Origin: a virus
Taxonomy: Duplodnaviria > Heunggongvirae > Uroviricota > Caudoviricetes
Length of the DNA stretch: 36,263 bases
Strand: one strand, 5' to 3'
IMG/VR virus record: IMGVR_UViG_3300045988_159823
Coordinates: 1 to 36,263 of that record
Below the pieces are notes generated by a model that did no database searches, was not told where the DNA came from, and worked only from the letters and a program-made list of their open reading frames with translations. Position numbers and translations under genes: made by a program. Positions 7,010 to 36,133 of the stretch are shown here, piece by piece. The stretch's first letter is position 1; every line of letters begins with the position of its first letter.

Positions 7010-7468
7010 TTACTTACGGCCCGTAAACGGGCTGCCCGGATAGGGAATCGATAGCTGCTCTCCCATTTTATCCTCTTCAAGCTGGTGCTTTATGTAATCC
7101 TGTATCTTCGCCGTGTTCTTACCCACTGTATCGACGTAGTACCCTCTGCACCAGAACTCCCTGTTCCTGTATTTGAATTTCAAATCACCAAACTGCTCGT
7201 AAAGCATCAGACTGCTTTTCCATTTCAGATATCCCATAAAGCCGGATACGCTCATTTTGGGCGGGATCTCCACAAGCATATGGATATGATCTGCACAGCA
7301 TTCAGCTTCCAGAATCCGTACACTTTTCCACTCACACAGCTTTCTCAAAATACTGCCTATTGCTCTACGCTTCTCTCTGTAGAACACCTGTCTTCGGTAT
7401 TTTGGCGCAAAAACTATGTGATATTTACAGTTCCATCGGGTGTGCGCTAAGCTCTTTTCGTTCCCCAT
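7010..7468 (-). CDS. tnpA: IS200 transposase TnpA (HUH / Y1 family)
   Basis: MGNEKSLAHTRWNCKYHIVFAPKYRRQVFY... and the HIHMLVEIPPKMSVS motif are characteristic of IS200 TnpA; start at internal Met 18 of the track ORF. Confidence 0.85.
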   Translation of the reverse strand: MGNEKSLAHTRWNCKYHIVFAPKYRRQVFYREKRRAIGSILRKLCEWKSVRILEAECCADHIHMLVEIPPKMSVSGFMGYLKWKSSLMLYEQFGDLKFKYRNREFWCRGYYVDTVGKNTAKIQDYIKHQLEEDKMGEQLSIPYPGSPFTGRK

Positions 7469-7611
7469 TGGGACCCCCTTTTGATTTCTTGTTTGACACT
7501 TGCAGTTGCCAGACCGCAAGGTGTTTTAACAAATCAAAAGGGGTTTTAATAACTGGCTCAAAGCTGAAAGCTTTCCGGACCCCCCAGCCTAGCTGGGGGT
7601 TTTCTGTGCAC

Positions 7612-7657: not shown

Positions 7658-8188
7658 TTAGCGAGTCAGAAACAACGAATCTTTATACTTTTGCTGTTGT
7701 TCATTTAAATACTTAGCTGTTTCATCGCTGGCAAATGGAAATATTACCGTATTTTTAGGCATGGTAATTTCTTTTTTGTCCAGCGTCAGAGTAAACATAG
7801 GAACATACTGAGCAGAGTAACGCACCGCAGAAACGAGCTCTAGTTTAGACTCTTCAACAACACTTAAATTATCCAGGCTAACTTTCTCTTCATCTTTTTT
7901 CTTTGACGCATTTAAAGTTTTTATTACTTTATTTAATTTCTCCTGAAAATCCTCCTTAAAGTTTTCAGGATTGCCGTCGACAACAAGAATCTGTTCACCC
8001 TGATTATCTGGAAAAATAATCTTTGCACTTATCAATTTATTTTCTTTATAAACATCACCAAGTTTTATGGCTCCTCCAGATAACTGAATAATATGTTCAT
8101 CTTTAAAGGAGATGTTGCCAGAGATTATGAGAGATGAAAAAACAGCCGCTGCTCCAAGAATTACACTTGCTGTGATATAGCCTTTCAT
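7658..8188 (-). CDS. AT-rich cargo gene: secreted/periplasmic protein of unknown function
   Basis: N-terminal signal peptide MKGYITASVILGAAAVFSSLIISG with no lipobox Cys; Lys/Glu-rich mature part; AT-rich relative to flanking tail genes. Confidence 0.55.
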   Translation of the reverse strand: MKGYITASVILGAAAVFSSLIISGNISFKDEHIIQLSGGAIKLGDVYKENKLISAKIIFPDNQGEQILVVDGNPENFKEDFQEKLNKVIKTLNASKKKDEEKVSLDNLSVVEESKLELVSAVRYSAQYVPMFTLTLDKKEITMPKNTVIFPFASDETAKYLNEQQQKYKDSLFLTR

Positions 8189-22863: not shown

Positions 22864-23610
22864 ATGCGACATAATTTTTCTAAAGACACTATAAAAAAAT
22901 TAGCAGAGCGGGCAGCATTCATTTGTTCAAACCCTTCATGCCCTAGATTGACCATTGGCCCATCAATTGATGGCAATAAATCAATCAAGACAGGAGTTGC
23001 TGCTCACATATGTGCAGCATCTCCTGATGGCCCACGCTATGACATGTCACAATCAGAAACAGAAAGGAAGTCAATTAACAATGGCATATGGCTGTGTGCT
23101 ACTTGTTCTGTATTAATAGATAAGAATCAGGGGCTAGACTATCCGGCACCTGTATTAAGAAAATGGAAAAAAGATCATGAAAGCCTTATAAGCTCCTGTC
23201 TTGAAGGTTCGATTAATATTACCTTCGATGCTTTGAAATATATTCAACAGCATGATGAAAGAAATCTGGCAAAAAAGATTATAAATGAATTGGATGATAA
23301 AGGGGCTTTGTTCGTAGAATATCATCTTGAAAACCCCTGTTTTGTTGCCGAATCACTCAAAGAGTTAAGAACATGTTTGACCTCTTTGCTTTCTCAAATC
23401 CCAGATGAATCACCTCTATTTATCGTTTGCAAGTCAATTCGAGAAGCATGCCGTTATTATATGAACAACACTTCTAAAGACGCAGGGATTAAAGAGTTAG
23501 AATTTTCGTTGGGAGCTGTCAGAAAAATCGTAGGTATCAACGTTAAAAGAATATCAGAAACCTACGGGGTTAAACCTAGCCCACAATTATCTACCATAAT
23601 GCCAGATTAA
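22864..23610 (+). CDS. AT-rich cargo gene: HNH-nuclease-like N-terminal domain plus uncharacterized C-terminal domain
   Basis: CSNPSC ... AAHICAASPDGPRY ... NGIWLCATCS arrangement resembles an HNH zinc-finger nuclease core; encoded antisense to the late operon between Q and the holin. Confidence 0.6.
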   Translation: MRHNFSKDTIKKLAERAAFICSNPSCPRLTIGPSIDGNKSIKTGVAAHICAASPDGPRYDMSQSETERKSINNGIWLCATCSVLIDKNQGLDYPAPVLRKWKKDHESLISSCLEGSINITFDALKYIQQHDERNLAKKIINELDDKGALFVEYHLENPCFVAESLKELRTCLTSLLSQIPDESPLFIVCKSIREACRYYMNNTSKDAGIKELEFSLGAVRKIVGINVKRISETYGVKPSPQLSTIMPD

Positions 23611-29943: not shown

Positions 29944-30250
29944 ATACTTGGCAATGTACCTTTGAGATACATAATGTACCCAAGAGAAACAACAAACAGG
30001 CAGGACGTCCACGAAGTAACCCCCTGGAGCATATGAAGTCCAGGCTGATTCGTTAGCAACAAAAAAGCGCCCTACCGGACGCTTCGCTCTTTAAAAATCA
30101 GTAACCCTCACTTTGGGCCTGGATCTGGTGGCCTGGGATGAGGTGGAATATGAAAAGGCTCTATTGGTCGACTCATTATCCAATCCTATTATGTCTCATT
30201 TCTTCGGTTTCGGTGGTTTCGGCTTCGGAGGTACATGTCCGTGAACTGGA

Positions 30251-30691
30251 TTATGCTTGTTGGTCATCATTAATATCCGTTAGTTCATTCTCTAGAGGTA
30301 GATCTCCCGCACACCAAGCAATAAATTTTTCTTTGGTTGTTAGATCGTACTTAGTTGGAACACCAGCAAAAATGCAGGCCCGAATGAAAGCCGCTCGTTC
30401 AAGTGATTTCCATGGATTACTATCGGTATCTTGGATTTTTAAATACCTAGCTTGCAACTGATCTTCAGAAAGAGTATCAGACTCAATCAGCAGTCTTTTG
30501 TAATGCCTCGCTTGTTCTTTAGACATCCCAGCCTCCTGGCCGAACTGATAGACCAACTGAAGAACCGAAAGTACGGCAACAAACAAACCGAAAATAAATA
30601 AATTACTGTACGGGGCGAAAACTGAAAAACCGAGAACGATTAACATCAACGTTATTAATTTATCAATACGAGTTAACAACGTGTAATTCAT
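30251..30691 (-). CDS. AT-rich cargo gene: small inner-membrane protein (two TM helices plus cytoplasmic domain), unknown function
   Basis: Hydrophobic LITLMLIVLGFSVFAPY and LFIFGLFVAVLSVLQLVY; start at internal Met preceded by GGAG; AT-rich island 30040..30850 downstream of cI. Confidence 0.55.
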   Translation of the reverse strand: MNYTLLTRIDKLITLMLIVLGFSVFAPYSNLFIFGLFVAVLSVLQLVYQFGQEAGMSKEQARHYKRLLIESDTLSEDQLQARYLKIQDTDSNPWKSLERAAFIRACIFAGVPTKYDLTTKEKFIAWCAGDLPLENELTDINDDQQA

Positions 30692-31386
30692 CTTCTCCAA
30701 TACATAAGAGTAGTGAATATAAAATTTATAATCGTCTCTGGTCATATTAGTCTCAGTTTTCCTTGGGTGGTTTTGGAGGAACTGGAGGCTTTTGTCTTAA
30801 CGGCACATGCCTCTCCTCATACTTATCTACACATCGTTCCATATAAATCCTTATCGTTGTTGGGGAGTGTTACATAATAACCAAATCCTTGTTGTTGGGG
30901 AATAACTAGGTCCACCTCGCCTGATGTGGCTAAAAGCAGGCACATAACAGCTAAGTATTTTCAACCAGAGAGAATCCTTAGCGTTGTGGTGAATGCGGCT
31001 CAGCGCACGCGGGTAAAGGTTGAGGCTGACAGTCGACCTTCTGTGGATACCCACCCGCCTGGTGTGCAACCTTCGCCAGGCACCGGGAGGCACCCGGCAC
31101 CACAACTTTATGCTGTGTGTAGTCTTGGCGGTACCAGCTTGTACCCTTGCTTCCGGCTGGTACCGTCCTTTTTACAAAACAGAGAAGAGCATCACCGGAC
31201 GACGGGCTCATAACCCAATCCATCCGGGCGGCTGCCACCGCAGGTGTTCTTCTCTGTTTTGTGGAGAAACTAACCGCCCCTACGGGGGCATTTATGGAAA
31301 TGTAATTGACTCAATAATCGCCGGACGGTGAGGGCTTCCTTTTACCAGAATTCAGCGTGGTGCAGCACATATACGTGGAGAACAAA

Positions 31387-31923: not shown

Positions 31924-31978
31924 CAGCGAAATTAACTAGTGAAATAGTTTTGTAGCAAAAGAAATGAGGTTATCAAAA

Positions 31979-32224
31979 ATGCTTCAAATGCTGACACTTG
32001 AGGAATGGGCTGCGGAAAAATTTAGGAGTAATCCTCCAAGTGTGTCCACATTACGTCGTTATGCTAAGCAGAATTTATTTTGTCCACCGGCAATGAAACA
32101 AGGTCGACTATGGCGAGTGCGTGAGGATGCAGAGTTAGTTGGGGAGTTAGTTACTCCAGTAATAAAGAAAAGTGATTCTATTATTCTACAAAGGATTTTA
32201 GGTAATGGCAGCCAGACCACGTAA
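31979..32224 (+). CDS. xis: excisionase (lambda Xis-like)
   Basis: LTLEEWAAEKF ... STLRRYAKQNLFCPPAMKQGRLWRVRED parallels lambda Xis; overlaps the int start; exact start ambiguous (31964, 31979 or 31988). Confidence 0.7.
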   Translation: MLQMLTLEEWAAEKFRSNPPSVSTLRRYAKQNLFCPPAMKQGRLWRVREDAELVGELVTPVIKKSDSIILQRILGNGSQTT

Positions 32225-33335
32225 AAATAATGTTTCAGTCCCGAACTTGTATCCGCTTTATAGCAGAAAAGTAAATAAAGTCTATTGGCGATATAAACAT
32301 CCAGTGACCGGGAAGTTTCATTCTTTAGGCACAAACGAAGCTGAAGCCATTGCTATTGCCACTGAGGCAAATTCACGCCTGGCTGAGCAAAGAACCCGGC
32401 AGATTCTGGCTATCAGTGACAGGATCGCAACCAGCAAAGGAAAAGCAATCACAACGTCAACCTGGTTAGATCGCTATCAAGCAATCCAGGATGACAGACT
32501 GGAAAGTGGCGATATAAAGCTCAACACCTATAAACAGAAAGCCAAACCAGTATCCTTGCTCAGGGAACGAGCAGGAATGAAATTAATTTCATCAGTTGAT
32601 GCAAGGGATATAGCACAATTGCTTGACGAGTATATCACTGCCGGGCAACCGAGGATGGCGCAAGTAGTCCGCTCCGTTCTAATTGATGTATTCAAGGAGG
32701 CACAACACTATGGGGAAGTCCCTCCGGGCTATAATCCTGCACTGGCAACCAAACAACCCAGAAGAAAAATTACCCGACAACGGTTAAATCTTGAAGAGTG
32801 GCAAAAAATCTTTGATATTGCAGATGCCAGTCATCGTTATATGGGGAATGCCATGCTGTTAGCACTGGTTACCGGCCAACGGTTAGGTGATATCTCACGT
32901 ATGAAATTTAGCGATATTTGGGATGATCATCTTCACGTCATCCAGGAAAAAACCGGGAGCAAAATCGCCATCCCGCTTTCTCTGCGCCTCAATGCGATTA
33001 ACTGGAGTTTGCGCGATGTAGTAGCCCGTTGCCGTGACTATGCTGTCAGCCCATACCTTGTACATTTTTTTCGTACTACTTCACAGGCTGAACGCGGCGC
33101 ACAGGTTAAAGCCAATACCTTGACTATGAATTTCAGTAAAGCAAGAGATTTAGCAGGAATTGATTGGGGGAAAGGTTCACCTGCCACATTCCATGAACAA
33201 CGGTCTTTATCTGAACGTCTGTACAAAGAACAGGGGATCGATACTAGAAAGCTACTGGGCCATAAAACCCAGCAGCAAACAGATCGCTACCATGATGACC
33301 GAGGGAAAGATTGGAGTAAAATAGCTATAATTTGA
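32205..33335 (+). CDS. int: tyrosine integrase, lambda Int family
   Basis: Collinear with lambda Int including ...TFHEQRSLSERLYKEQ...LLGHKTQQQTDRYHDDRGKDWSKI (catalytic R-H-R-Y region). Confidence 0.9.
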   Translation: MAARPRKNNVSVPNLYPLYSRKVNKVYWRYKHPVTGKFHSLGTNEAEAIAIATEANSRLAEQRTRQILAISDRIATSKGKAITTSTWLDRYQAIQDDRLESGDIKLNTYKQKAKPVSLLRERAGMKLISSVDARDIAQLLDEYITAGQPRMAQVVRSVLIDVFKEAQHYGEVPPGYNPALATKQPRRKITRQRLNLEEWQKIFDIADASHRYMGNAMLLALVTGQRLGDISRMKFSDIWDDHLHVIQEKTGSKIAIPLSLRLNAINWSLRDVVARCRDYAVSPYLVHFFRTTSQAERGAQVKANTLTMNFSKARDLAGIDWGKGSPATFHEQRSLSERLYKEQGIDTRKLLGHKTQQQTDRYHDDRGKDWSKIAII

Positions 33336-34185
33336 CTCTTGTAGGATCCATATCATCAGGAATAGAAATGCTATCACAAAAAAAGATTACTTCTGGCCCT
33401 TGGTACCTAGATTGAGCACTATAGCTGATACCGTACTCAATTTTTCTAAGACCAGTGTACATGTTGTTTATTTCAACAGTATTATCGTAAGATACAATCC
33501 ATGGATGCTTTGAATTAGATTTTATAATATTAGCAATTTCGACATGATCATCATGACTATAATGGTTTTGATACAAGCCCTTTCCTTTAACATAATATGG
33601 AGGGTCAAGATAAAGCAATGTTTTTAATGGGAATCCAGTTACAGTATTTTGCAAGAATGATTTAGCATCTTGGTTATAGATACAAATATCAGATTTACGG
33701 TCTGCTATTACCTTAATACGGTTTACTAAATCAACCTTATTAAATCGAGCATCTATTTTCCATTTTCCATTTTGTTCCTTACCACCAATTACACCACCTA
33801 ACAAAATTCCTGACCGATTTGTTCGATTAAGGAAAAACGTAGCGAATCCAACTTCCAATGAGGAATAATCACATTGATTACTAATGATATTTTTATTCTT
33901 ATACCATTCATCCATATTCACAGGGGTTTTTTCAATTAATTGGCAAAACTGATCAGTTTCTTCTAGAATTGACCGCCAAAAACAAAAAATGGCGTTATTA
34001 AGATCGTTTAAATGTATACGTGATGCTTTCCCAGACAAAAGTAAATTAATGGCTACTCCAGCACCACCAGCATACGGCTCAACATATTCGCAACCATCTA
34101 AACCATTGATCATAATGATCTTTGATAGATAGTTAGTTAATTTACCTTTACCACCAGGATACCGTAATGGGGTGCTGAATCTCAT
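33325..34185 (-). CDS. N6-adenine DNA methyltransferase, Dam (D12) family
   Basis: RYPGGK, VEPYAGGAGVAINLL (SAM-binding) and LYLDPPYY (catalytic DPPY) motifs in Dam-like order; AT-rich; 3' end overlaps the int 3' end by 11 bp. Confidence 0.8.
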   Translation of the reverse strand: MRFSTPLRYPGGKGKLTNYLSKIIMINGLDGCEYVEPYAGGAGVAINLLLSGKASRIHLNDLNNAIFCFWRSILEETDQFCQLIEKTPVNMDEWYKNKNIISNQCDYSSLEVGFATFFLNRTNRSGILLGGVIGGKEQNGKWKIDARFNKVDLVNRIKVIADRKSDICIYNQDAKSFLQNTVTGFPLKTLLYLDPPYYVKGKGLYQNHYSHDDHVEIANIIKSNSKHPWIVSYDNTVEINNMYTGLRKIEYGISYSAQSRYQGPEVIFFCDSISIPDDMDPTRVKL

Positions 34186-34254
34186 ATCTTATACTCAACG
34201 ATCAAAAACTACTGTATATAATACCACATTATCTGGTTTCAGGATACCATAGAA

Positions 34255-35964
34255 TCACTTAGTCACAACGCTCTTAACTCTTTCAGGATTAAGGCCAAAT
34301 TCTTCCCCTATAACAAAGCGCAATGCTTCGATAAGAGTATCGTTAAACTTGTCTACCAATATTTTATTATCCTCAGCCCACTTTCTATATGGATTGTATT
34401 TTACACCGCCACATTTTATCAGTTCTTGTAATGTTTTCTCCTGTATAAATTTTTTGAATAACTCTCTTATCCTTGAACCATCAAGTTTATCTTTATTAAC
34501 TTCTTTTATTTTTTCTTTTAATTTAATTTTTTGCTCACTAATATTAAGAGCAGTAATTATGGGGTTGGACTTTTCGAAAAAATAGTCTTTAGTATAATGT
34601 AGTGGGTTGTTCTTCCAGAAATCATCACTGGCATCTAGGTTAAATAGATATTCGAAAATTATTTGATCCGGTGGTAATATTCCCGGTAATTTAACCACAT
34701 TCGCATGCTTGACATTCTCCACGTCAGCATCTAAAACAATTATTGCAGACTTATAAAAACCAGGAACTTTTTTGTTTAAAAGTTGAATATAGTTTTTGCA
34801 TCCAAGAGTTATGTCCTTATTTAAATTAAGTAATCTTCTTATATCTCTGCGTGTTACAACAGAACAAAATAAATCATAATTTTCCTTATCCTCAAAGAAA
34901 ACATTAGTCTTCCGAATAGACTCCTGCTTATTCAACTGTAATGTTTCATTGCAAAGATCTAGCCTAATATCTCCCCATGAATAATCATTCTTTACTTCTA
35001 ACTTACCGTAAGTATTTGTTAGATATATCACCTTATAGTTTTTGCTGTCTCTTTTCGTATATTCATATACTGAATTTATAATCTCTGGTGAATGAGTGGT
35101 AAATACCACCTGTAAATCTAACTTCTTAGTGATAGATGATAATTTCTCAATTAAACGTCTCTGTGCTGCAGGAAACAATCCAGCATCAATTTCATCTATC
35201 AATAGAATCCCACCATGATAATCTGGATATTCAGCCTGAAGTTTTTTAAATGAAAAAATAGCTTGTAGTATTTGTCCTAAATTATCCTCGCCAACAGAAA
35301 CAGATTGATGATCGTATTTTTCACCACTAACAACCATCGAGTCTATAGTACCATTTGTTTTTGTTAGATTATTGGCATTTCGTACACCTAAAATATATGA
35401 ACTTAATTGAACAAAGTCTTGTCTATTTAAATTCATAAATTCATCAATATCAGACACAGTGTATTTTTGACGATCTGGCACGGGTGTAAGGCGCTTCATA
35501 CTCAAGTAAATTAGCGGATGTGTAACCTTTCTGCTATCACTAGCCCCATTAGTAGTAGTATTATTACGAACCGTTGCTCGAGGGTATGAATGTTCACTCC
35601 TTAAATATAGACCGAGTTTTAATTGTTCCAACTCCTTCTGTTCAGCTCCATCATATATAATGACATCAACATCCATAGAACTTGGCGTATCAAACTTTTC
35701 TGAGAGCCGGAAATGCTCTCTAAACTGAGATGAGAAAGGTTTTCCAGCAAGAGTCTTATATTTTCTCAGATCTACCTTTGGCTCTTGAGTATAATCGGTC
35801 TCAAAATTAAACATTTGGGCAGCAATGCCCAACACCGTCGATTTTGACGTACCATTTTTGCCACAAATTGCCGTTATACGTTCACCAAAATGGATCGTAC
35901 AGTCATTCAAGCCTCGAAAGCTCTTTATTTTTATTTCTTTTAGCTTGGTTATTTTTTGGGACAT
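34255..35964 (-). CDS. OLD-family-like ABC ATPase with a probable C-terminal TOPRIM nuclease domain
   Basis: Walker A GKNGTSKST, Walker B ILLIDEIDAG, H-loop TTHSPE; C-terminal FFEDKENYD plus IIVLDADVE look like a TOPRIM Glu and DxD; start at internal Met with AGGA spacing. Confidence 0.7.
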   Translation of the reverse strand: MSQKITKLKEIKIKSFRGLNDCTIHFGERITAICGKNGTSKSTVLGIAAQMFNFETDYTQEPKVDLRKYKTLAGKPFSSQFREHFRLSEKFDTPSSMDVDVIIYDGAEQKELEQLKLGLYLRSEHSYPRATVRNNTTTNGASDSRKVTHPLIYLSMKRLTPVPDRQKYTVSDIDEFMNLNRQDFVQLSSYILGVRNANNLTKTNGTIDSMVVSGEKYDHQSVSVGEDNLGQILQAIFSFKKLQAEYPDYHGGILLIDEIDAGLFPAAQRRLIEKLSSITKKLDLQVVFTTHSPEIINSVYEYTKRDSKNYKVIYLTNTYGKLEVKNDYSWGDIRLDLCNETLQLNKQESIRKTNVFFEDKENYDLFCSVVTRRDIRRLLNLNKDITLGCKNYIQLLNKKVPGFYKSAIIVLDADVENVKHANVVKLPGILPPDQIIFEYLFNLDASDDFWKNNPLHYTKDYFFEKSNPIITALNISEQKIKLKEKIKEVNKDKLDGSRIRELFKKFIQEKTLQELIKCGGVKYNPYRKWAEDNKILVDKFNDTLIEALRFVIGEEFGLNPERVKSVVTK

Positions 35965-36031
35965 ATTTTCCTTCGTCCTCATTTTGATTAAAAAAACAGA
36001 TAAACGGAAAAATGCTACCATGTAGAGAAAG

Positions 36032-36064
36032 TTTTGATAACTTATTTTGATAAAATTTTGATAA
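36032..36064. repeat. three direct repeats of TTTTGATAA at 11-13 bp spacing
   Basis: Read directly: ...gTTTTGATAActtaTTTTGATAAaaTTTTGATAAcc...; lies between the ATPase start and the icd terminator. Confidence 0.4.
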
Positions 36065-36080
36065 CCGTTAGCAGACTAAC

Positions 36081-36110
36081 AAAAAACAACGGGAGCGTTA
36101 CACTCCCGTT
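36081..36110 (-). terminator. rho-independent terminator of icd
   Basis: Minus-sense hairpin AACGGGAG-TGTAACG-CTCCCGTT followed by GTTTTTTG, 24 bp after the icd stop. Confidence 0.55.
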
Positions 36111-36133
36111 AATAGATTTAACAAATCACGATA

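What the first reader, a model, noticed from the sequence alone, without database searches (positions are those of the whole stretch)
33325..35964. Two-gene AT-rich cargo module at the int-icd hotspot: OLD-like ATPase/TOPRIM nuclease paired with a Dam-family adenine methyltransferase
The genes are co-oriented 69 bp apart, with composition unlike the phage backbone, and sit between the integrase and the attachment-site side (icd), where e14 carries ymfD/ymfE/lit. The upstream protein has SMC/ABC-type ATPase motifs (GKNGTSKST, ILLIDEIDAG, TTHSPE) and a C-terminal region with a TOPRIM-like Glu and DxD, as in OLD/GajA-class nucleases. The downstream protein is a clear Dam-type MTase (RYPGGK, EPYAGGAG, DPPYY). 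I know of no characterized system that pairs an OLD-type nuclease with a dedicated Dam-like methylase. It could be a restriction-modification-like or methylation-gated defence module in which m6A marks self DNA, or the methylase could protect the prophage from the nuclease.
Basis: partly seen in the sequence, partly recalled or inferred. Interest (0 to 1): 0.8.

Follow-up and report, generated by a model that had tools for sequence, protein, structure and literature searches.

The report
OLD-like nuclease plus methylase defence pair
A prophage cargo slot next to the E. coli icd gene holds a widely conserved two-gene unit, an ATP-driven OLD-like nuclease and an adenine DNA methylase, which is probably an unnamed restriction-modification-like phage defence related to the validated PD-lambda-5 system.

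Summary
Two co-oriented minus-strand genes lie 69 bp apart in an AT-rich (about 32% GC) cargo slot between intE and icd of an e14-like prophage. They encode a 569-aa ABC ATPase with a divergent TOPRIM C-terminus and a 286-aa D12 adenine methylase.

The pairing is not chance. In 55 of 69 loci from one-genome-per-species contigs, the methylase sits immediately downstream of the ATPase on the same strand. These loci span Proteobacteria, Bacteroidota, Mycobacterium and Listeria. The two proteins co-diverge (Mantel r 0.84).

The methylase belongs to the PD-Lambda-5_B family (E 1.9e-121), so it is the methylase of an experimentally validated system. The partner here is not PD-Lambda-5_A (ParB/HEPN). 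It is an OLD-like ATPase-TOPRIM protein, distantly related to HEC-04/IbfA. The same methylase family pairs with either partner, and four loci carry all three genes.

Most likely this is a restriction-modification-like module: m6A marks self DNA and the ATPase-TOPRIM protein is the effector. A guard or abortive-infection reading remains possible. I found no paper describing this pair.

Verdict: a new variant of a known kind, of moderate interest, and directly testable.

The parts
34255..35964 (-). Gene for the 569-aa ABC-ATPase/TOPRIM-like protein (OLD-like effector). The Walker A motif GKNGTSKS is aa 35-42, the Walker B residues are D257-E258 and the H-loop residue is H291.
   Evidence: ORF. 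Pfam AAA_15, AAA_21 and SMC_N. PADLOC HEC-04 3.4e-22, ATPase-Toprim_I-B 2.1e-14 and GajA 1.3e-15. phrog_3940 at 7.5e-146, end to end. AF2 model with pLDDT 86 whose top Foldseek match is OLD nuclease 6p74 at 3.7e-12.
34258..34929 (-). C-terminal region (aa 346-569): a four-stranded TOPRIM-like core followed by an all-helical domain. Invariant residues are E358, D359, D412, D414, P432-D433-Q434 and K504.
34186..34254 (-). 69-bp spacer between the two genes. It contains TGgTATTAT, a possible extended -10 element for the methylase.
   Evidence: Sequence read directly. The consensus scan did not call it. It is not conserved: many homologous loci have gaps of 2-30 bp. This is inference only.
33325..34185 (-). 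Gene for the 286-aa D12-class N6-adenine DNA methyltransferase of the PD-Lambda-5_B family. The AdoMet motif is EPYAGGAG (aa 36-43) and the catalytic motif is DPPY (aa 194-197).
   Evidence: Pfam PF02086 8.7e-18. PADLOC PD-Lambda-5_B 1.9e-121 and MTase_II 6.2e-103. The motifs are 93-100% conserved in 56 pair-associated homologues.
35965..36029 (-). Cargo-specific leader upstream of the ATPase gene. It holds the ribosome-binding site and presumably the promoter of the two-gene unit.
   Evidence: Sequence. Similarity to e14-like prophages that carry other cargo stops at about 36030. No consensus promoter was called.
36030..36133 (-). Conserved prophage/att flank: the icd terminator hairpin (36111-36087) and three TTATCAAAA direct repeats (36032-36064). 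This marks the boundary of the cargo slot.
   Evidence: Terminator scan. The repeat occurs 4 times against 0.38 expected. The region is shared with strains that have other cargo.
32205..33335 (+). intE-type tyrosine integrase. It converges on the methylase gene and overlaps it by 11 bp, forming the other boundary of the cargo slot.
   Evidence: ORF. Annotated as a site-specific integrase in identical E. coli regions.

Best explanation
This is a mobile two-gene anti-phage module with restriction-modification logic.

Shown: the D12 methylase has intact AdoMet and DPPY motifs and belongs to the same family as the methylase of PD-lambda-5.

Inferred: it puts N6-methyladenine on the DNA of the cell and of the prophage.

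Shown: the upstream protein is an OLD-like machine, with an ABC-ATPase head and a TOPRIM-type metal-dependent nuclease domain plus a helical domain.

Inferred: it acts as the effector. It uses ATP binding or hydrolysis to engage DNA, and it nicks or cuts DNA that lacks the mark, such as incoming phage DNA.

Shown: the pair is inherited as a unit. It sits in defence-cargo slots of prophages (the e14 int-icd slot, the P2 gpA-portal slot, int-adjacent in phiNP) and of an integrative conjugative element.

Shown: the methylase family is a common core to which alternative effectors are attached. These are the ParB/HEPN protein of PD-lambda-5, this ATPase-TOPRIM protein, or both together.
For: Tight, cross-phylum synteny: 55 of 69 loci have ATPase then methylase on the same strand with a median gap of about 47 bp, and some are only 2 bp apart.

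Co-divergence of the two proteins: Mantel r 0.84, with 0 of 999 permutations reaching it.

All catalytic motifs of both proteins are invariant.

The methylase matches PD-Lambda-5_B at 1.9e-121. PD-lambda-5 is a validated broad-range defence, and it had to be cloned in a strain deleted for the mrr region (PMC9519451). I read that as a sign that the methylase is active in vivo.

Methylases 58-60% identical to this one are preceded by PD-Lambda-5_A instead. Four loci carry A, the methylase and this ATPase together.

The nearest tested relative of the ATPase, HEC-04, needs both its Walker A motif and its TOPRIM E/DxD residues for defence, and is toxic when induced.

The module sits in known defence hotspots.

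The decay pattern is asymmetric, as in restriction-modification systems. The ATPase is broken with the methylase intact in 3 loci; the reverse is not clearly seen in any.
Against: No experiment exists on this pair.

OLD-family and HEC-04/PARIS-type proteins characterised so far act without a methylase. Several are abortive-infection sensors rather than self/non-self nucleases.

The TOPRIM assignment is statistically weak.

Intact ATPase homologues without any nearby methylase exist: two Pasteurellaceae loci, L050 and L051, and distant relatives L062 and L063.

The methylase shows no hypervariable target-recognition region. If there is a recognition site, it is probably uniform across the family, which is unusual for classical restriction-modification diversification.

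The decay counts are small, and some loci come from metagenome bins.
Confidence: 0.5

Rival explanations
1. Guard or abortive-infection reading ('RM+Abi'). The ATPase-TOPRIM protein is a latent suicide effector, like PARIS AriAB, PrrC or HEC-04. It is held in check by the methylase or by normal methylation. It is released when a phage inhibits the methylase or deploys an anti-restriction protein, and it then destroys host nucleic acid and aborts the infection.
For: The ABC-ATPase plus TOPRIM architecture is that of PARIS, Gabija, HEC-04 and retron effectors, several of which are abortive-infection sensors. [quoted passage not shown] In the three-gene loci the ATPase is added to a complete PD-lambda-5 A+B pair, like a backup layer. 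Obligate linkage and co-divergence fit a physical sensor-bait complex.
Against: In the common two-gene form there is no other restriction component for the methylase to serve. A methylase kept only as bait is an expensive solution. The broken-ATPase/intact-methylase asymmetry fits this reading as well as the best explanation, so it does not discriminate.
Confidence: 0.27
2. Two independent cargo genes. The methylase serves the prophage or element, for example by protecting its DNA against restriction in new hosts or by epigenetic regulation. The ATPase-TOPRIM protein is a self-sufficient single-gene exclusion system like P2 Old or HEC-04/IbfA.
For: HEC-04/IbfA and P2 Old work as single genes. 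Phages often carry orphan D12 methylases; phiNP has a second adenine methylase elsewhere in its genome. ATPase homologues without a methylase exist (L050, L051, L062, L063).
Against: Adjacency holds in 55 of 69 species-level loci across phyla and in non-phage contexts, with near-overlapping stop and start codons. The two proteins co-diverge. The same methylase family is always found next to some nuclease-type partner.
Confidence: 0.12
3. Methylation-directed attack. The methylase marks invading or replicating phage DNA, and the ATPase-TOPRIM protein cuts the methylated DNA (Type IV-like logic).
For: The alternative partner of this methylase family, PD-Lambda-5_A, is a ParB/HEPN protein. From my own knowledge, that architecture resembles modification-dependent enzymes of the GmrSD/BrxU type. 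PD-lambda-5 works best on T-even phages, which have modified DNA.
Against: A constitutively expressed methylase would mark the chromosome too and make the system self-lethal. Nothing in the sequences suggests that the methylase is targeted to foreign DNA.
Confidence: 0.05

Closest known systems
PD-lambda-5 (Vassallo et al. 2022, PMC9519451; PADLOC PD-Lambda-5_A/B)
   Same: The methylase family is the same (PD-Lambda-5_B, 1.9e-121). Both are two-gene operons with the effector upstream and the methylase downstream. Both sit in prophage cargo slots, including the P2 hotspot. Methylase relatives 58-60% identical to the window protein are true PD-lambda-5 loci. Four loci combine both effectors.
   Different: The partner here is a 569-aa ABC-ATPase/TOPRIM protein, not the roughly 450-500-aa ParB/HEPN protein. 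No PD-Lambda-5_A model is among the 25 best PADLOC matches of the window ATPase. From the PADLOC model names I infer its rule would need both components and would miss this module.
HEC-04 / IbfA (Payne et al. 2024 bioRxiv 10.1101/2024.01.29.577857; PMC12111858)
   Same: Both are ABC ATPases fused to a C-terminal TOPRIM domain in one polypeptide. HEC-04 is the best PADLOC match (3.4e-22), and the alignment runs through the E and DxD region. The C-terminus alone still finds HEC-04 in 6 of 21 family members. In HEC-04 the Walker A and TOPRIM residues are essential for defence.
   Different: HEC-04/IbfA is a single-gene system of about 500 aa with no dedicated methylase. It was found embedded in Hma loci or on IncI plasmids. 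Sequence similarity to the window protein is distant and partial.
OLD family nucleases (P2 Old, Ts OLD 6p74, Bp OLD 6nk8; Gabija GajA; retron Eco8 effector; PARIS AriA/AriB)
   Same: The overall architecture and the top full-length fold matches agree. The conserved Glu and DxD sit in canonical TOPRIM positions, followed by a helical domain. The family also occupies the P2 gpA-portal slot, which is where P2 old sits.
Type II restriction-modification systems with alpha-class D12 methylases (e.g. DpnII/Dam group)
   Same: The methylase class is the same, and the PADLOC Type II methylase model matches at 6.2e-103. Both link a nuclease and a methylase in an operon. Both show conserved methylases with interchangeable, fast-evolving nucleases.
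   Different: The nuclease partner is an ATP-dependent ABC/TOPRIM protein, not a PD-(D/E)XK, HNH or GIY-YIG endonuclease. The target sequence and methylation sensitivity are unknown.
AbiR of Lactococcus lactis pKR223 (recalled from memory: Twomey et al. 2000; not checked here)
   Same: It is an abortive-infection determinant whose toxicity to the host is said to be relieved by a linked methylase. This is a precedent for a methylase neutralising a non-classical effector.
   Different: The proteins are unrelated and the operon has several components. This is my recollection only.

Membership tests
OLD family nuclease | N-terminal ABC-type ATPase with Walker A, Walker B, signature-like motif and H-loop | tested here: met
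   Pfam AAA_15 2e-19, AAA_21 4.4e-15, SMC_N 1.5e-7. GKNGTSKS, SxGEDN, D257-E258 and H291 are invariant. Foldseek of the full model gives 6p74 OLD at 3.7e-12 and GajA at 7e-12.
OLD family nuclease | C-terminal TOPRIM domain with an invariant Glu after strand 1 and DxD after strand 3 | tested here: inconclusive
OLD family nuclease | Second-metal ligands and a catalytic Lys contributed by the helical domain (Bp OLD E404, T506/E508, K562; PMC6755086) | not testable with these tools
   Candidate invariant residues exist (D359/E361, D433-Q434, K504). No residue-level superposition could be made.
OLD family nuclease | Class-defining neighbour: none (Class 1), UvrD helicase (Class 2/Gabija), retron reverse transcriptase (Class 3) or DUF4435 (PARIS) | tested here: not met
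   The neighbour is a D12 methylase in 55 of 69 loci. In the window the neighbours are the methylase, intE and icd.
PD-lambda-5 | Component B: D12 methylase matching PD-Lambda-5_B | tested here: met
   PDLC04018 at 1.9e-121, covering 2-280 of 286 aa.
PD-lambda-5 | Component A: ParB/HEPN protein matching PD-Lambda-5_A, adjacent to B | tested here: not met
   The upstream protein is an ABC ATPase, and none of its 25 best PADLOC matches is PD-Lambda-5_A. True A proteins from L073, L076, L003, L007, L029 and L054 score 5e-65 to 9e-164.
HEC-04 / IbfA | Single-gene ABC ATPase-TOPRIM matching the HEC-04 model over its full length and acting alone | tested here: not met
   The match is partial (3.4e-22; best stretch aa 252-441 against model positions 233-405 of 494). 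The gene is obligately paired with a methylase.
Type II restriction-modification | DNA methyltransferase with intact catalytic motifs | tested here: met
   PF02086 8.7e-18. MTase_II PDLC03358 6.2e-103. DPPY is 100% conserved.
Type II restriction-modification | Cognate endonuclease blocked by the methylation | not testable with these tools
   This needs methylome and cleavage assays. The only indirect support is linkage and the decay asymmetry.
Dam (GATC orphan methylase, TIGR00571) | Score above the NCBIfam cut-off for the dam subfamily | tested here: not met
   61.3 bits against a cut-off of 114.85.

The most novel reading that the evidence does not exclude
A restriction-modification system whose restriction component is an OLD-type ABC-ATPase/TOPRIM machine gated by m6A. 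More broadly, the PD-Lambda-5_B methylase would be a universal 'self-marking' core onto which unrelated effectors are plugged interchangeably in mobile-element hotspots: ParB/HEPN, two clades of ATPase-TOPRIM, or both stacked. That would make methylation-sensing a property of OLD-like nucleases, which has not been reported.
Probability: 0.35. Interest if true: 0.75.

Novelty: new variant of a known kind. Interest (0 to 1): 0.55.

Why it matters
OLD-like ATPase-TOPRIM proteins (P2 Old, Gabija, PARIS, retron effectors, HEC-04) are among the commonest defence effectors. How they tell self from non-self is only partly understood, and none is known to read DNA methylation.

This module is widespread. 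At 50% identity clustering there are roughly 40 near-full-length clusters with E below 1e-80 and 288 with E below 1e-30. It occurs in many phyla, and about 135 of 5426 complete E. coli genomes carry the methylase family. The module would not be called as PD-lambda-5, because its ATPase matches no PD-Lambda-5_A model.

If methylation gates the nuclease, this adds a new class of ATP-dependent restriction enzyme. It would also explain PD-lambda-5 as one member of a modular family.

The module is small, at 2.7 kb. It comes from E. coli and from an inducible phage (phiNP), so it can be tested with standard phage panels.

Tried and rejected
(1) PD-lambda-5 membership. Rejected: the A component is absent.

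(2) Gabija, PARIS or retron membership. Rejected: no GajB helicase, DUF4435 protein or reverse transcriptase is nearby, and the matches cover the ATPase part only.

Rejected: those NCBIfam hits are weak P-loop-only matches far below their cut-offs. The conserved C-terminal domain with the E/DxD motifs exists.

(4) A strong structural proof of TOPRIM. Folding the C-terminus alone gave a confident model but only weak matches. Pfam found nothing.

(5) Literature. Searches for the accession numbers, for the OLD-plus-methyltransferase combination and for prophage hotspot terms found no description of this pair. The PAO1161 paper links an OLD gene and a methylase only by coincidence. Rousset 2022 does not mention methylases. 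Krishnan et al. 2020, on ABC-ATPase conflict systems, may list such neighbourhoods, but it is not held in the library.

(6) The TTATCAAAA repeats as an operator of the module. Rejected as the first choice: they lie in backbone shared with prophages that carry other cargo.

(7) A conserved internal promoter for the methylase. The spacer is not conserved.

(8) Testing whether carrier strains lack mrr.
Full report
**1. Observation**

The window region 33325-35964 holds two minus-strand ORFs 69 bp apart. One encodes a 569-aa protein (34255..35964) and the other a 286-aa protein (33325..34185). GC is 0.31-0.37 here, against 0.50-0.59 in most of the prophage backbone.

The 3-kb stretch is 99-100% identical to seven complete E. 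coli genomes. In those genomes it lies between a site-specific integrase (intE) and icd, at the end of an e14-like lambdoid prophage.

Other strains have different cargo in the same int-icd slot: a DUF262 protein plus a hypothetical, or an Sll1717-type P-loop ATPase. From established K-12 annotation, e14 carries ymfD, ymfE and lit there.

Similarity to those strains ends at the integrase stop codon (33335) and resumes at about 36030. The variable cargo is therefore about 33336-36029.

**2. The two proteins**

The large protein has ABC/SMC-type ATPase motifs. Pfam gives AAA_15 (2e-19), AAA_21 (4.4e-15) and SMC_N.

In an alignment of 32 homologues, these positions are invariant:
- the Walker A motif GKNGTSKS;
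- a signature-like SxGEDNxGQ;
- the Walker B residues D257-E258;
- H291.

So are several C-terminal positions:
- N354, F357, E358 and D359 ('FFEDKE');
- D412 and D414 ('VLDGDV');
- L426-P427;
- P432-D433-Q434;
- K504.

The full-length AlphaFold model (pLDDT 86) finds these as its best Foldseek matches in the PDB:

| Match | E-value | Note |
|---|---|---|
| Thermus scotoductus OLD nuclease 6p74 | 3.7e-12 | 484 alignment columns |
| Gabija GajA | 7e-12 | |
| Retron Eco8 OLD-type effector | 2.8e-10 | |

The C-terminal 224 residues were folded alone (pLDDT 90.8, pTM 0.88). They give a four-stranded core with E358 just after strand 1 and D412xD414 just after strand 3, followed by an all-helical domain. 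That is the canonical TOPRIM order described for OLD proteins (PMC6755086).

Statistical support for this domain alone is weak:
- Foldseek ranks the Bp and Xcc OLD C-terminal regions first, but with E of about 0.3.
- Pfam finds no TOPRIM.
- The C-terminus alone matches the PADLOC HEC-04 model in 6 of 21 family members, best E 3.6e-4.

At full length the best PADLOC matches are HEC-04 (3.4e-22, through the E/DxD region) and the retron I-B ATPase-Toprim model (2.1e-14, aa 222-491).

PHROGs places the protein end to end in phrog_3940, which has 'unknown function' (7.5e-146).

I conclude that this is an OLD-like ABC-ATPase with a divergent TOPRIM nuclease domain. Membership of the OLD family proper is not demonstrated.

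The small protein is a D12-class adenine methylase (PF02086, 8.7e-18). It is not a Dam equivalog: it scores 61 bits against a cut-off of 115. Its decisive match is PADLOC PD-Lambda-5_B at 1.9e-121. A Type II methylase model also matches at 6.2e-103.

**3. What PD-lambda-5 is**

Vassallo et al. (PMC9519451) selected PD-lambda-5 from ECOR7. They record it as 'ParB/HEPN, methyltransferase' (RCQ13837.1 and RCQ13838.1). It protects against nearly all phages in their panel, most strongly the T-even phages. It had to be cloned in MG1655 deleted for the mrr region. [quoted passage not shown]

The window ATPase is not PD-Lambda-5_A.

**4. The pair elsewhere**

The ATPase family has 886 close hits, all about 570 aa. 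They come from Enterobacterales, Acinetobacter, Pseudomonas and others, including Citrobacter phage phiNP. At 50% identity clustering, 288 clusters have E below 1e-30.

A scan of one genome per species returned 69 loci. A homologue of the window methylase is present as follows:

| Arrangement | Loci |
|---|---|
| Methylase (39-76% identical) directly downstream, same strand; median gap about 47 bp, some 2 bp | 55 |
| Methylase within about 0.3-2.2 kb | 4 |
| Contig ends just after the ATPase gene | 5 |
| ATPase gene itself degraded | 1 |
| No methylase (two Pasteurellaceae, two 31%-identical distant relatives) | 4 |

The taxa include Gamma- and Betaproteobacteria, Bacteroidota, Geobacter, Mycobacterium and Listeria.

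Pairwise identities of the two proteins across 56 distinct loci correlate strongly (Mantel r 0.84, 0 of 999 permutations). The methylase is somewhat more conserved: mean identity is 0.62 against 0.56. Its catalytic motifs are invariant, and no hypervariable target-recognition block is visible.

In E. coli the module appears in several settings:
- Seven genomes carry this exact pair at icd.
- A DNA-level search finds the methylase family in 135 of 5426 genomes.
- A 47%-identical ATPase with a methylase lies beside another prophage integrase. This is the commonest type among the sampled rows.
- One pair lies inside an integrative conjugative element.
- A pair occupies the P2 gpA-portal hotspot in reversed order. 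Its ATPase is only 25% identical by BLAST but belongs to the same phrog_3940 (2e-135).
- PD-lambda-5-type loci are also present: a 501-aa A protein plus methylase in the P2 hotspot, and a ParB/Srx protein convergent with the methylase in a lambdoid prophage.

The icd-int slot holds diverged versions of the pair in Buttiauxella and in a metagenomic contig. The inducible Citrobacter phage phiNP has integrase, ATPase and methylase in that order at its genome end.

**5. Modularity**

Methylases 58-61% identical to the window protein are preceded by a 450-480-aa protein. These are closer to the window methylase than the betaproteobacterial ATPase-linked methylases are, at 48-50%.
- For L073 and L076 the upstream protein is a bona fide PD-Lambda-5_A (5e-65 and 2e-74).
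- Similar arrangements occur in L088 and L090, where the upstream protein was not scanned against the model.

Four loci hold all three genes, with A-component scores between 8e-97 and 9e-164. They are Edaphovirga L003, Kushneria L007, and Mycolicibacter L029 and Mycobacterium L054.

In a neighbour-joining tree of the methylases, partner type is not monophyletic. This tree has no support values and the sampling is biased towards ATPase loci.

PADLOC needs 25 models for PD-Lambda-5_A but only two for B. The picture is a conserved methylase core with interchangeable, fast-evolving effectors.

**6. Mechanism**

Shown:
- The two genes are co-inherited.
- Catalytic motifs are intact in both proteins.
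- The methylase belongs to the family of a validated defence system.
- The module sits in defence hotspots.
- The ATPase is related to HEC-04, whose defence requires its ATPase and TOPRIM residues and which is toxic when induced.

Inferred:
- m6A marks self DNA.
- The ATPase-TOPRIM protein attacks unmarked DNA.

One weak piece of extra support is the decay pattern. Three loci have a disrupted ATPase gene with an intact methylase (L049, L054, L064). Three have both genes disrupted. None clearly has the reverse pattern.

The main rival is a guard or abortive-infection design, in which the ATPase-TOPRIM protein is released when the methylase or methylation is compromised. This fits the 'RM+Abi' remark, the three-gene loci, and the behaviour of PARIS- and PrrC-type relatives. 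Independent functions are unlikely given the linkage. Methylation-directed attack would be self-lethal.

**7. Comparison and novelty**

The module works like a restriction-modification system and like PD-lambda-5. It is not a member of PD-lambda-5 (no A component), Gabija, PARIS, retron systems or HEC-04.

I found no paper describing this pair. [quoted passage not shown] 2020, cited) could not be read.

I rate it a new variant of a known kind. Interest is moderate at 0.55. It would be higher if methylation gating of an OLD-like nuclease were shown.

Noticed in passing
window 22864-23610 (+): An AT-rich 248-aa ORF lies on the strand opposite to the lysis and Q genes, between the holin and the Q antiterminator. 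Its N-terminal region matches HNH endonuclease domains of CBASS SAVED-HNH effectors and the PADLOC candidate PDC-M68A (7.5e-27). There is no Pfam hit. It is probably a second defence moron in this prophage.
   Followed up: partly
window 7010-7519 (-) and 7658-8188 (-): An IS200-like Y1 transposase (PF01797, 1.7e-37) is inserted among the tail genes in a low-GC patch. Next to it is a 176-aa AT-rich ORF with a signal-peptide-like N-terminus and no family match.
   Followed up: partly
window 36032-36064 (-), plus 31970-31978 (+): Three TTATCAAAA direct repeats, 11-13 bp apart, lie between the icd terminator and the ATPase start. A fourth copy sits at the start of xis. That is 4 copies against 0.38 expected. 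They lie in backbone shared with e14-like prophages carrying other cargo. They are therefore more likely integrase arm-type sites than regulators of the module.
   Followed up: partly
window 33325-33335: The integrase (+) and methylase (-) genes converge and their 3' ends overlap by 11 bp. In strain L65 the otherwise identical integrase is split by an IS1A insertion, whereas it is intact in the window.
   Followed up: no
L050 5818-7671 and L051 5815-7662 (Aggregatibacter, Haemophilus): These ATPase-TOPRIM homologues (about 41% identical) carry a roughly 55-aa N-terminal extension and have no methylase within the flanks. They are a natural exception to the pairing. They could show whether a host methylase substitutes for the missing partner.
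   Followed up: partly
L008-L012, L026 (Cupriavidus, Sphingorhabdus, Comamonadaceae, Melaminivora and others): Identical or nearly identical copies of the pair occur in different families of Proteobacteria. They show the same 42.06% identity to the query, and their methylase sequences are identical in five loci. This suggests recent spread on a broad-host-range element. The flanks were not analysed.
   Followed up: no
L085 5814-6665 (Citrobacter phage phiNP OR565852): A methylase ORF 56% identical to the window protein follows the annotated AAA ATPase. It is missing from the feature table that the tool returned for this record.
   Followed up: yes
window 30138-31331: This stretch has many overlapping short ORFs on both strands and no clear gene. 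In the L65 record the neighbouring region is annotated as a frameshifted hypothetical. It is possibly a decayed gene or a non-coding RNA region.
   Followed up: no
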